Shown here: positions 2-1,973 of the stretch, one piece after another
Layout: the number at the start of each line of letters is the position of its first letter
Numbering within the stretch: position 1 is the stretch's first letter
NCBI GenBank assembly: GCA_043823375.1
Contig: JBDRAX010000229.1
Span: 1 to 42,203 of the forward strand
Reading direction: 5' to 3'
DNA: 42,203 nt
Origin: Candidatus Omnitrophota bacterium
Lineage (GTDB): Bacteria; Omnitrophota; Gorgyraeia; Tantalellales; Tantalellaceae
Translations under genes and position numbers: made by a program
Notes under the pieces: generated by a model
The model's database searches: none
Told to the model about the DNA's origin: nothing
What the model saw: the letters and a program-made list of their open reading frames with translations, nothing else

Positions 2-112
2 ATACAACAGGCGCTGGAAAGGCTTCAGCACGAGATCGACCATATCGAATCCGAGATAGGCGACCATCATGAGAAGGGTGAGTACGGCCGAAGCGGAGAA
101 GTTGAGGAATGA
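2..112 (+). CDS. 3' end of an upstream CDS, possibly serine O-acetyltransferase (partial)
   Basis: Open frame from the window edge reads IQQALERLQHEIDHIESEIGDHHEKGEYGRSGEVEE, stop TGA at 110-112. A helical tail and a position before cysS fit cysE, but no diagnostic motif is visible. Confidence 0.45.
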   Translation: MQQALERLQHEIDHIESEIGDHHEKGEYGRSGEVEE

Positions 113-211
113 TCCCGCGCCCGGGGCTGAAAGTAAAAAAAAACATAAATAGGTAGTGCCAAAAATTATATGAGTGCGCCGAGCAAGAATAATGAAAAGA
201 AAGAGGGATGG

Positions 212-480
212 AATTGAACCACAGAGAGCACAGAGAGGATTAATGATCGGGGAGAGAAAAGCTCTGTGTTCTCAAGATAAGTATCCATTAAGAGGTTTAA
301 CAAAAGAGACAAATTTTTGTTGTATAAAGGTAGGGCTTTTGATTAATTTTAATGTTTTGAGACTGAAAGAAGGCATTAAAAGACTATTTCTGTGAGAACA
401 CAGAGAAAAAAAGGGGAGGGCATATGTTTTTGCCTGACCTCTTTATTTTAAAGAACCTCTGTGAACTCTGTGGTTAAATT
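212..480. mobile_element. MITE-like cassette bounded by nested inverted repeats (GxxExxY-associated CACAGAG-type repeats)
   Basis: Outer IR AATTGAACCACAGAGAGCACAGAG (212-235) vs CTCTGTGAACTCTGTGGTTAAATT (457-480), 21/24 complementary. Inner perfect 13-bp IR CTCTGTGTTCTCA (262-274) vs TGAGAACACAGAG (393-405). Mobility is inferred. Confidence 0.6.
243..395 (+). pseudogene. Internally deleted GxxExxY (PD-(D/E)XK-like nuclease) gene remnant, 50 aa
   Basis: ATG at 243 after GAGAGG. The C-terminus IKVGLLINFNVLRLKEGIKRLFL matches the typical GxxExxY C-terminus, and KYPLRGLTKET resembles the N-terminus. The GPGxxExxY core is absent. Confidence 0.7.
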
Positions 481-494
481 TTCGAGGAGACAAA

Positions 495-1973
495 ATGATA
501 TCGATCTATAATACCCTTACAAGGCGGAAAGATGAATTCAAGCCTATGCGGGAAGGCAATGTAAGCATGTATGTGTGCGGGCCTACAGTGTATGATGTCC
601 CTCATATCGGCCATGCCAGAAGCGCCTATTCTTTCGAGGTTATACGCAAATACCTTGAATATTCGGGATATAAAGTATTTTTTGTCAGGAATGTGACGGA
701 TGTAGATGATAAGATAATCAAAAAAGCTGTCGATGAACTTAATGAAATAGGGGAAAAAATATCCGCCCCGCGCCTAAGGGAAAGAGTTAAAGACGTCGCT
801 GAGCGGTACCTCGGGGTATATCATAATGAAATGGATATATTCGGGATACGTAAACCTACCAGAGAGCCGAAGGCCACGGAAAACATAAAAGAGATGCTGG
901 ATTTTATTAATGTGCTTATCGCGAAAAAGTTCGCTTATGCCGCGGGCGCGAATGTCTATTTCAGCGTTGAATCGTTCCCGGAATACGGTAAATTGTCGAA
1001 ACAGGACAGGGAGCAGATGCTGCACGGCGCGCGTGTGGGCCTGGACGAAAAAAAACGCCACCCTCTTGATTTCGCTCTATGGAAAGAAGCGGCGGAAGAT
1101 GAACCTTACTGGGAGAGCCCTTGGGGAAAAGGCCGCCCGGGATGGCATATAGAGTGTTCCGTTATGAGTACGGGCATCCTTGGGGCGCAGTTCGATATAC
1201 ACGGCGGCGGGCTGGACCTTATCTTTCCGCACCATGAAAATGAGATAGCTCAGGCTGAGGCGGCGACTGGGAAACCTTTCGCCAATTACTGGATACACAA
1301 CGGGCTGCTTACCGTTTCCGGTGAGAAAATGTCAAAGTCTCTGGGAAATTATGTCAGGATCTCGGATTTCCTCACGAAATACAGCGACCCTGACCTTCTG
1401 AAAATAGCTTTTCTTTCGAGCCATTACAGAAGCCCCATGGATTACAGTGATGAAAAAATGGATAGCGCGGGCCGTTCCAGGGAACGCGTAATGATCTTTT
1501 TTGACAAGGTTGACAGGATGACGCGCGAATGCCCGGGCGCGGGCGGCATAATGCTGGAAGACATGTCGGCGGTTGAAAAAGCACAGCGCGTGGTGAACGA
1601 ACTCCAGGAAAAATTCGAAGCGGCCATGGACGATGATTTTAATACTCCGCAGGCCCTCGCCGTGATATTCGAAGCCGTGAAAACGGGAAATGATCTTATG
1701 TCAGAAGAAGGCGCGGCTTTACCGGAAAGAGCGTATAAGGCGAACGCCGTGAAAAATTATGTATTGAGAGCGGCGGATATACTCGGCCTGTCGCTGAACG
1801 CGGCAAAAATGAACGCGTCGGAAACGGGCGAGATAGGCCGCCTGGTTCTACTCAGGGAAGAGGCGAGAAAAAACAGGGATTTCGCGTCAGCGGACAGGAT
1901 ACGTAAAGAGCTCGCGGATAAAGGCGTGACTGTCGAGGATACTCCGGAGGGGCCGGTATGGCGAAAAAAATAA
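495..1973 (+). CDS. cysS: Cysteine--tRNA ligase
   Basis: MYVCGPTVY, HIGH, GRPGWHIECS, DIHGGGLDLIFPHHENE and KMSKS motifs; RBS GAGGAG. Confidence 0.98.
   Translation: MISIYNTLTRRKDEFKPMREGNVSMYVCGPTVYDVPHIGHARSAYSFEVIRKYLEYSGYKVFFVRNVTDVDDKIIKKAVDELNEIGEKISAPRLRERVKDVAERYLGVYHNEMDIFGIRKPTREPKATENIKEMLDFINVLIAKKFAYAAGANVYFSVESFPEYGKLSKQDREQMLHGARVGLDEKKRHPLDFALWKEAAEDEPYWESPWGKGRPGWHIECSVMSTGILGAQFDIHGGGLDLIFPHHENEIAQAEAATGKPFANYWIHNGLLTVSGEKMSKSLGNYVRISDFLTKYSDPDLLKIAFLSSHYRSPMDYSDEKMDSAGRSRERVMIFFDKVDRMTRECPGAGGIMLEDMSAVEKAQRVVNELQEKFEAAMDDDFNTPQALAVIFEAVKTGNDLMSEEGAALPERAYKANAVKNYVLRAADILGLSLNAAKMNASETGEIGRLVLLREEARKNRDFASADRIRKELADKGVTVEDTPEGPVWRKK

What the first reader, a model, noticed from the sequence alone, without database searches (positions are those of the whole stretch)
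243..395. In-frame internally deleted GxxExxY nuclease gene, a candidate non-autonomous element
Seen: a 50-aa ORF with its own RBS, whose tail IKVGLLINFNVLRLKEGIKRLFL follows directly on a KYPLRGLTKETNFCC segment. Knowledge: GxxExxY (PDDEXK_3-type) proteins usually start like KYPxxELTxxIIGCAIxVH and end like GIKVGLLINFNVxxLKDGIKR. Inference: the central GPGxxExxY and catalytic region was deleted, plausibly by microhomology between the two I-K/E-V segments (ATAAAGGT at 324-331), while both ends and the flanking repeats were kept. This is how MITEs relate to autonomous elements, and would imply GxxExxY cassettes are a poorly described mobile or selfish element family.
Basis: partly seen in the sequence, partly recalled or inferred. 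Interest (0 to 1): 0.75.

Follow-up and report, generated by a model that had tools for sequence, protein, structure and literature searches.

The report
Gutted nuclease gene in transposon relic
The small ORF is the two joined ends of a nuclease gene whose catalytic middle was deleted, and it lies in a decayed copy of a tiny mobile element that lands just upstream of ribosome-binding sites and seems undescribed in print.

Summary
ORF 243-395 aligns with 12 full-length GxxExxY (PF13366) proteins at both ends and lacks 85 central residues, in frame (junction CCI|KVG). The missing part holds every invariant catalytic-type residue.

The ORF lies in a 340-bp element (152-491) between cysE and cysS. 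These genes abut or overlap in 8 of 21 relatives read. The genome holds 11 decayed copies and no intact gene.

Six of the 8 copies that keep both ends carry 9-bp target duplications. A 543-bp metagenome copy with an intact gene has the same inverted ends and a duplication matching at 8 of 9 bases.

Defective versions did spread. Three copies share the same interior junk at different sites, and a related genome holds at least 7 near-identical copies of another in-frame deletion.

New here: 21 of 26 right ends lie 22-25 nt before a co-oriented start codon, and GGAG starts at +15 in 15 of them. This looks like oriented insertion next to Shine-Dalgarno sites.

The window copy itself shows no target duplication, has a damaged right end and has a unique deletion, so it is probably a dead relic. 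The mobilising enzyme is unknown.

Earlier notes of this scan found the same cassette type on other DNA. I found no description in the papers searched.

The parts
2..112 (+). 3' end of cysE (cut by the contig start)
   Evidence: The tail IQQALERLQHEIDHIESEI... is shared with the gene upstream of cysS in 21 of 24 relatives' loci. The full ORF of relative L114 scores 243.7 bits on TIGR01172 cysE.
152..167 (+). Left terminal inverted repeat, the start of the element
   Evidence: It matches the family's left end with 0 mismatches. Equivalent ends are seen in C1, C31, C48, C73, C143 and C235.
168..217 (+). Left subterminal region, with an 11-nt insertion relative to the other copies
   Evidence: MAFFT alignment of 9 copies.
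218..236 (+). Left outer arm with two CACAGAG heptamers (220-226 and 229-235)
   Evidence: Inverted repeat I1, 212-235 with 457-480. The same heptamers flank full-length genes in 46 of 76 loci from other genomes.
243..395 (+). 50-aa remnant ORF: N-part 243-326, deletion junction 324-331, C-part 327-392, stop 393-395
   Evidence: Alignment A1 with 12 full-length PF13366 proteins shows an 85-column in-frame gap. HMM hits are on the tail only.
262..274 (+). Left inner arm (CTCTGTG...), lying inside the ORF's 5' codons (the conserved 'LC')
   Evidence: Inverted repeat I3, 13 nt, 100% complementary to 393-405. 'LC' is conserved in the full-length N-termini.
393..405 (+). Right inner arm, overlapping the stop codon
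   Evidence: Inverted repeat I3. The same TGAGAACACAGAG follows the stop in L029 to L031.
406..456 (+). Right subterminal region
   Evidence: Conserved in C1, C31, C48 and C73.
457..476 (+). Right outer arm with two CTCTGTG heptamers, ending in GGTT
   Evidence: Inverted repeat I1. It is present in the other copies.
477..491 (+). Damaged right terminal inverted repeat, which now holds the cysS Shine-Dalgarno (GAGGAG, 485-490)
   Evidence: It has 4 mismatches of 15 to the family's right end. The start codon follows after 3 nt, against 22-25 nt in the other 10 copies. The cause is either point changes or a deletion of about 20 bp.
495..1973 (+). cysS, the co-oriented downstream gene
   Evidence: TIGR00435, 522 bits.

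Best explanation
Window 152-491 is a dead, defective copy of a small transposable element. Its complete form is about 0.54 kb. It consists of terminal inverted repeats, nested arms built of CACAGAG heptamers, and a single gene for a GxxExxY PD-(D/E)XK nuclease of about 125 aa. A copy landed in the cysE-cysS junction. An in-frame deletion of 255 bp then removed residues 40-124 of the nuclease, which include all catalytic-type residues, and left the first and last codons joined as a 50-aa ORF. The right tip of the element was also damaged and now supplies the cysS ribosome-binding site. Shown: the deletion, the repeat anatomy, the multi-copy family, the 9-bp target duplications in other copies, the spread of defective versions, empty sites in relatives, and the fixed spacing to the downstream Shine-Dalgarno and start codon. 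Inferred: the family moves by staggered cleavage of a target 5 to 14 nt upstream of a GGAG, in one orientation; the enzyme responsible is most likely the element's own nuclease acting in trans on defective copies; the remnant peptide has no function; and cysS is expressed by read-through from cysE.
For: Deletion: and the tail HMM hits. The invariant E51, E55, D90, E100 and K102 of a 76-sequence alignment all lie within 40-124. Family: 11 copies in G000 share the left and right ends. Target duplications: same-copy 9-mers match at 9, 8, 7, 4, 8, 8, 5 and 8 of 9 in the 8 two-ended copies. The 56 cross-copy control pairs have a mean of 3.1 and a maximum of 6, and the best offset is 0,0. Gene-bearing form: L150 is 543 bp with an intact ORF, the same ends and an 8 of 9 duplication, and has no room for another gene. 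Spread of defective forms: C1, C31 and C143 share the same interior junk module at the same place but have different duplications. G023 has at least 7 near-identical copies of a DFL|INF in-frame deletion before 7 different genes. Empty sites. Targeting: of 26 right ends (11 in G000, 7 in G023, 8 elsewhere), the start codon of a co-oriented ORF lies 22-25 nt away in 21. GGAG starts at +15 in 15, at +14 or +16 in 4 and at +21 in 1, and there is no exact GGAG in 6. Nuclease fold: the AF2 model has pLDDT 87.0, and the top structural matches are PD-(D/E)XK enzymes (Cas4 SSO0001 Z 8.0, rmsd 4.3, 100 aligned; BglII Z 7.7, rmsd 3.1, 106 aligned). No + strand promoter-like or terminator-like site lies in 1-700.
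Against: The window copy itself has no demonstrable target duplication (5 of 9) and no intact right end. C56 also fails (4 of 9). Of the two independent full-length loci with both ends recognisable, only L150 shows a duplication; L031/L032 give 4 of 9. No intact cognate gene was found in G000 (85.7% complete) or G023 (96% complete), yet G023 had a recent burst, so a trans-acting nuclease was not seen where it was needed. A PD-(D/E)XK protein alone is not known, to my recollection, to carry out transposition with target duplication. Structural Z scores of 8 or less are middling. Neighbour strands and start codons come from my own ORF rules, not from a gene caller. The Shine-Dalgarno spacing could partly reflect selection to keep downstream genes expressed. 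No RNA data exist.
Confidence: 0.82

Rival explanations
1. The element is an ordinary MITE moved by a conventional transposase (a DDE enzyme of some IS family) that recognises the terminal inverted repeats. The GxxExxY gene is only a passenger.
For: Terminal inverted repeats with 9-bp target duplications are the usual signature of DDE transposition. Bacterial MITEs are known (for example MITEAba12, PMC6382973, search listing and abstract start only). DDE_Tnp_1 genes exist in both genomes: 1 broken in G000 and 6 in G023. Defective copies multiplied in G023 without a visible cognate nuclease gene.
Against: None of the 13 transposase loci examined (DDE_Tnp_1, rve, Y1_Tnp) carries the element's ends or heptamers nearby. 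IS1-type DDE gave 0 of 2 genomes. The same nuclease gene sits inside the same arms in many phyla (46 of 76 loci), which is unlike a casual passenger. The full-length element has no room for a transposase.
Confidence: 0.25
2. The remnant has been co-opted. The retained in-frame ORF and nested stems are kept because translation through the insert, or the RNA structure, serves expression of the essential downstream cysS, for example by avoiding polarity.
For: Three independent internal deletions are all in frame: this one, DFL|INF in G023 and IIS|EAQ in P0014. The region folds far better than shuffles, with the ORF enclosed by both stems (DNA z -5.41, RNA z -6.51). The element's right tip supplies the cysS ribosome-binding site.
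Against: P0014 could only be found because it is in frame, so the effective sample is two. Most other copies in G000 are full of stops. The junction is unique to this locus. The strong folding follows from the inverted repeats that any such element has. No expression data are available.
Confidence: 0.08
3. It is a REP/RAYT-like system. The hairpin arms are moved by a Y1 (IS200-like) transposase, as REPINs are.
For: Y1_Tnp matches over the cut-off occur in both genomes, 5 in G000 and 8 in G023. The arms form hairpins. Earlier notes of this scan named REPIN/RAYT as the closest known system.
Against: As I recall, Y1 transposition makes no target duplication, while 6 of 8 copies here have 9-bp duplications. 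No Y1 locus carries the heptamers or the ends. The Y1 genes more likely go with the separate palindromes of this genome, which give 39 and 32 hits.
Confidence: 0.05

Closest known systems
Bacterial MITEs derived from insertion sequences (for example MITEAba12 of Acinetobacter, PMC6382973, search listing and abstract start only; Correia elements, recalled)
   Same: Both are short, have terminal inverted repeats and target-site duplications, and occur in many copies. Both arise from a longer element by internal deletion, lack a working enzyme gene and sit in intergenic DNA.
   Different: Here the longer form is only about 0.54 kb. Its single gene is a PD-(D/E)XK nuclease of about 125 aa and not a DDE transposase. 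Insertions are oriented and sit at a fixed distance from the downstream Shine-Dalgarno. The arms are arrays of a heptamer shared across phyla.
REPIN / RAYT systems
   Same: Both are hairpin-forming repeats dispersed in intergenic DNA and associated with one small enzyme gene that is itself flanked by the repeats.
   Different: The enzyme fold differs (PD-(D/E)XK, not HUH/Y1). These elements make 9-bp target duplications and have terminal inverted repeats outside the hairpin arms.
Intergenic heptamer direct repeats just upstream of start codons (TAACTGA repeats; MacGregor 2015, PMC4679880, passages read through 'find')
   Same: Both are heptamer arrays in 'forward' orientation within a few to some tens of nucleotides of start codons. 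Both are scattered across distant phyla, and that paper notes no evident transfer mechanism.
   Different: That paper reads them as possible translational regulators. It has no occurrence of the word 'nuclease' in its main text. The heptamer also differs.
Free-standing homing endonuclease genes and Type IIS restriction nucleases (recalled)
   Same: In both, a small nuclease is the only gene of a selfish unit. A Type IIS enzyme cuts at a fixed distance to one side of a short asymmetric motif, which would fit the oriented GGAG spacing seen here.
   Different: Homing needs homology to an empty allele and makes no target duplication. No recognition or cleavage activity is known for GxxExxY proteins; Steczkiewicz 2012 (PMC3424549, one table passage) lists PF13366 with function 'Unknown'.

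Membership tests
GxxExxY / PDDEXK_3 protein family (PF13366, TIGR04256) | A whole-protein HMM score over the curated cut-off | tested here: not met
   The 50-aa ORF scores 16.5 bits against 22 (Pfam) and 15.2 against 35 (NCBIfam), on the tail only. The full-length relative P0001 scores 145.3 bits.
GxxExxY / PDDEXK_3 protein family (PF13366, TIGR04256) | The GxxExxY motif and the D...ExK catalytic-type residues | tested here: not met
   Invariant G46/E51/Y54 and D90/E100/K102 (P0001 numbering) all lie in the deleted stretch 40-124. The ORF is a remnant of a member and not a member itself.
GxxExxY / PDDEXK_3 protein family (PF13366, TIGR04256) | Homology of the retained ends to family members | tested here: met
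   The tail is 86-95% identical to 12 full-length PF13366 proteins, and the N-part aligns with their conserved KEYPL..T..II.CCI.
MITE (non-autonomous deletion derivative of a TIR transposon) | Terminal inverted repeats | tested here: inconclusive
   The left end is perfect. The right end has 4 mismatches of 15 or is truncated in the window copy. Both ends are present in 7 other copies.
MITE (non-autonomous deletion derivative of a TIR transposon) | Target-site duplication | tested here: inconclusive
   The window copy gives 5 of 9, within the control range. Six of the 8 two-ended copies give 7-9 of 9, against a control maximum of 6 in 56 pairs.
MITE (non-autonomous deletion derivative of a TIR transposon) | Derived from a longer, gene-bearing element with the same ends | tested here: met
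   L150 is 543 bp with the same ends and arms, an intact gene and an 8 of 9 duplication. L029 to L031 have the same architecture.
MITE (non-autonomous deletion derivative of a TIR transposon) | Amplification after loss of the gene (several copies sharing one defect) | tested here: not met
   This is not met for the window's own deletion, which is unique in G000. It is met for other defective versions of the family: C1, C31 and C143 share a module, and G023 has at least 7 copies.
MITE (non-autonomous deletion derivative of a TIR transposon) | A cognate autonomous element in the same genome | tested here: not met
   G000 (85.7% complete) has 0 PF13366 matches over the cut-off. Absence from an incomplete assembly is weak evidence.
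REPIN / RAYT | A Y1 transposase gene flanked by the same repeats, and no target duplication | tested here: not met
   Y1_Tnp loci lack the arms and ends, and 9-bp duplications are present.
IS1-family derived MITE (ends and 8-9-bp duplication recalled, not from a call) | An IS1 DDE transposase in the genome | tested here: not met
   PF03400 gave 0 of 2 genomes, G000 and G023. Both are draft assemblies.

The most novel reading that the evidence does not exclude
GxxExxY cassettes are a widespread, undescribed class of minimal transposons whose only protein, a PD-(D/E)XK nuclease of about 125 aa, mobilises them and their gene-less or gutted derivatives. They home to DNA encoding Shine-Dalgarno sites. 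Insertion is 14 nt upstream of GGAG with a 9-bp staggered cut, always pointing at the downstream gene, so they colonise operon junctions across many phyla. This would also explain the long-noted heptamer arrays just upstream of start codons.
Probability: 0.3. Interest if true: 0.9.

Novelty: new variant of a known kind. Interest (0 to 1): 0.7.

Why it matters
GxxExxY proteins are among the commonest 'function unknown' small proteins in environmental bacteria. Steczkiewicz 2012 lists PF13366 as 'Unknown' with multiple transfers. This locus and its relatives give base-resolved evidence that the gene travels inside a 0.5-kb element with inverted ends and 9-bp target duplications. They also show that gutted versions still spread, and that insertion is oriented and set at a fixed spacing from ribosome-binding sites. 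If the nuclease is the mobilising enzyme, this is a new and very small kind of transposon with built-in targeting of translation-start regions. That would interest work on mobile-DNA mechanisms and on operon evolution, since formerly coupled genes get split, and it might offer a tool for site-directed insertion. It also makes a concrete experiment possible: one small protein, one mini-element, one predicted target.

Tried and rejected
Rfam on 1-700 at E up to 1 gave only a chance-level snoRNA hit (E 0.81).

Sequencing runs: no RNA holder is listed. The contigs laid showed neither an empty allele nor a full-length allele at this locus. The other joints seen there match other genomic copies, for example the C235-type deletion.

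The PDB sequence search with profile A2 gave 0 hits. The AF2 model from the shallow 12-sequence alignment was useless (pLDDT 45.9) and was not searched. Foldseek on the good model gave no match at E of 0.001 or better.

A target duplication for the window copy could not be shown at any offset; the best was 7 of 9 at a shifted, A-rich offset. Among 160 loci from other genomes and metagenomes, only L150 and L031/L032 had both terminal repeats recognisable by my pattern, so duplications could not be tested more widely.

In more distant subfamilies without these terminal repeats, the distance from the last heptamer to the start codon is not one fixed value. It ranges from 6 to 50 nt, with many at 6-22.

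The left half of the G023 burst element could not be recovered, because all 7 copies sit at contig ends.

I considered integron attC sites, because the right arm ends in a GTTAAAT-like word. I dropped this reading because the copies are single and dispersed, have terminal repeats and target duplications, and the left arm does not fit the inverse core (by eye).

A chance ORF was rejected on the homology E-values.

That leaves the target consensus beyond 'GGAG at +15' undetermined.

Literature: 'GxxExxY' gave 3 papers, none on mobility. PDDEXK_3/PF13366/TIGR04256 gave 2 papers. PDDEXK+MITE, CACAGAG+heptamer, STRR/heptanucleotide and Shine-Dalgarno+MITE gave nothing that describes this element. 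Supplements were not available.

Full report
THE OBSERVATION

The stretch 243-395 is an open frame of 50 codons inside a longer frame, 174-395. Its last 23 residues hit the C-terminal 20-22 positions of PF13366 (E 0.0074-0.011; 16.5-17.1 bits, cut-off 22) and of TIGR04256 (E 0.015-0.02; cut-off 35). Taken alone this is below threshold.

A search for longer proteins settled the question. It found 12 PF13366 proteins of 133-150 aa among 73 candidates, with 86-95% identity to the tail and E down to 6.4e-8 against 5.8 billion sequences. In alignment A1 the window's ...ALCSQDKYPLRGLTKETNFCCI lines up with the consensus SLCxPKEYPLKDVTEKIISCCI. Then comes a gap of 85 columns, and then KVGLLINFNVLRLKEGIKRLFL lines up with the C-end. 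The ORF is therefore the two ends of a GxxExxY gene joined in frame, lacking residues 40-124 in P0001 numbering.

In a 76-sequence alignment the invariant residues include E51, Y54, E55, D90, E100 and K102. All of them lie in the missing part. An AF2 model of the full-length protein (pLDDT 87.0; residues 1-22 disordered) matches only PD-(D/E)XK nucleases, at middling scores. Examples are Cas4 SSO0001 (Z 8.0, rmsd 4.3, 100 aligned), BglII (Z 7.7, rmsd 3.1, 106 aligned) and Hjc (Z 6.7, rmsd 3.3, 86 aligned). The Foldseek top hit is lambda exonuclease at E 1.4e-3. The remnant cannot be a nuclease.

Contigs of three runs from two studies cover the junction unchanged.

THE SURROUNDINGS

The ORF is enclosed by nested inverted repeats: outer arms 212-235 / 457-480 and inner arms 262-274 / 393-405. 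Both the DNA and the RNA folds pair outer arm with outer arm and inner with inner (z -5.41 and -6.51). The arms are built of the heptamer CACAGAG.

Outside the arms lie a perfect left terminal repeat (152-167) and a damaged right one (477-491), which now contains the cysS Shine-Dalgarno. The upstream gene is cysE and the downstream gene is cysS.

A FAMILY OF COPIES

The genome (2.37 Mb, 275 contigs, 85.7% complete) holds 11 copies with the same left and right ends and different, decayed interiors. No PF13366 match reaches the cut-off. Only fragments of the GLLEGIYEEAL region remain, in C31 and C108.

Eight copies keep both ends. For these, the 9 nt before the left end and the 9 nt after the right end match at 9, 8, 7, 4, 8, 8, 5 and 8 positions. 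The 56 cross-copy control pairs have a mean of 3.1 and a maximum of 6, and the best offset is exactly 0,0. Six of the eight copies thus carry 9-bp target-site duplications. The window copy (5 of 9) and C56 (4 of 9) do not.

A metagenome contig, L150, carries a 543-bp copy with the same ends and arms, an intact ORF of about 135 codons, and a duplication matching at 8 of 9 positions. The other full-length locus with recognisable ends, L031/L032, gives 4 of 9.

DEFECTIVE VERSIONS SPREAD

C1, C31 and C143, and in part C108 and C48, share the same interior junk: a palindrome and an unrelated module inserted at the same place in the gene's 5' part. They sit at different sites with different duplications.

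Of 40 other genomes searched, only G023 (same family, another genus) has matches. It holds at least 7 near-identical copies, all at contig ends, in front of 7 different genes. Their frame reads ...YKGKEAGLHRIDFL|INFTVLRLKQAIKRLIL, which is another in-frame internal deletion.

A third, independent in-frame deletion (IIS|EAQLL) is the 71-aa metagenome protein P0014. That one could only be found because it is in frame.

The window's own deletion occurs once, so nothing shows that this copy moved after the deletion.

EMPTY SITES

cysS was found in all 25 family relatives searched. In 21 of the 24 loci read, the same cysE tail precedes it. The spacer is 0 (the genes abut or overlap) in 8 loci, 9-48 nt in 5 and 70-542 nt in 8. 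In the window it is 382 nt. None of the non-empty spacers holds the CACAGAG heptamer (by eye). Several hold arrays of other short words instead.

WHERE THE ELEMENT LANDS

In G000 the start codon of a co-oriented ORF lies 22-25 nt after the right end in 10 of 11 copies. The window copy is the exception, at 3 nt.

A pattern search over G000 and all fetched loci gave 31 hits. I set 5 aside as not being elements (G000 C15 and C118, L141, L040, L106). Of the 26 remaining right ends, 21 have the start codon at 22-25 nt. GGAG begins at +15 in 15, at +14 or +16 in 4 and at +21 in 1, and 6 have no exact GGAG; G-rich or AGGA/GAGG words stand there in five of those six.

The bases between the end and GGAG differ from copy to copy and include the duplicated 9-mer, so they are host DNA. 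Some copies have 26-73 nt of further spacer on the other side. Selection alone therefore does not explain the exact offset. I read this as oriented target choice next to Shine-Dalgarno sites.

In 80 loci from many phyla, the downstream neighbour is co-oriented in 65 of 72 that could be called and the upstream neighbour in 66 of 71. CACAGAG arms bracket the gene in 46 of 76 loci. These neighbour calls come from my own ORF rules. In distant subfamilies without these terminal repeats, the last heptamer lies 6-50 nt from the start codon, without a single fixed value.

WHO MOVES IT

The complete element has room for the nuclease gene only. IS1-type DDE was found in 0 of 2 genomes. DDE_Tnp_1 gave 1 broken match in G000 and 6 matches in G023. 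rve gave 0 and 1, and Y1_Tnp gave 5 and 8. None of the 13 loci fetched carries the element's ends or heptamers. The nuclease is therefore the leading candidate, but this is an inference. G023 had a burst without a visible cognate gene; its one intact GxxExxY gene (C98) belongs to another subfamily with different arm words.

The microhomology idea cannot be checked. The N-side parent reads ATAGAGGT in copy C48 and in L030 and L031, while the C-side parent is known only from distant relatives. The 'own RBS' is weak, as described under the observation check.

PRIOR KNOWLEDGE

The searches listed under Tried and rejected found no description of this element. Steczkiewicz 2012 (one table passage) lists PF13366 as function unknown with multiple transfers. 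MacGregor 2015 (passages) describes other heptamer arrays just upstream of start codons with no mechanism evident.

Earlier notes of this scan reported the same cassette type on other DNA, one of them with a 9-bp duplication. They are leads, not evidence.

VERDICT

This copy is a dead relic. The family is a real mobile element, apparently undescribed, with a notable target preference.

Noticed in passing
G000 copies C1, C31, C48, C56, C73, C92, C108, C143, C149, C235; G023 loci L006-L018; L029, L030, L031, L150, L153, L155, L193: The right end of the element lies 22-25 nt before a co-oriented start codon in 21 of 26 right ends, and GGAG begins at +15 in 15 of them. This looks like oriented insertion next to Shine-Dalgarno sites.
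   Followed up: partly
G000 C143:3174-3450 and genome-wide: Two further palindromic repeat families occur, with 39 and 32 hits at up to 3 substitutions. One forms a tandem array in C143, and copies are inserted inside several GxxExxY elements. The genome also has 5 Y1_Tnp matches, which may go with them.
   Followed up: partly
L112, L113, L116, L126, L127, L129, L132 (cysE-cysS spacers of relatives): In 8 relatives the same junction holds 70-542 nt filled with arrays of other short words, with a different word in each genome. The junction seems to be colonised repeatedly by word-array repeats.
   Followed up: no
L025 (G023:C98) 1486-1860, minus strand: An intact 124-aa GxxExxY gene sits between miaB and miaA, flanked by inverted arrays of a different word (ACACGGAT-like). 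The architecture is the same but the arm word is not.
   Followed up: no
P0014 (71 aa, 850-bp metagenome contig): This is an independent in-frame internal deletion of a close relative (junction IIS|EAQLL) that keeps both ends of the gene.
   Followed up: partly
L073, L077, L093, L097, L099, L102 and others (Acidobacteriota-type loci): In distant subfamilies the last heptamer is followed after only 8-11 nt by the start codon of the next gene. The intervening letters are similar between unrelated genes and show no GGAG.
   Followed up: no
L022 and L024 (G023:C116, C120): Further decayed copies are present. One has both arms around a non-GxxExxY interior and one keeps only a right arm. Both are again just upstream of a ribosome-binding site and start codon.
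   Followed up: no
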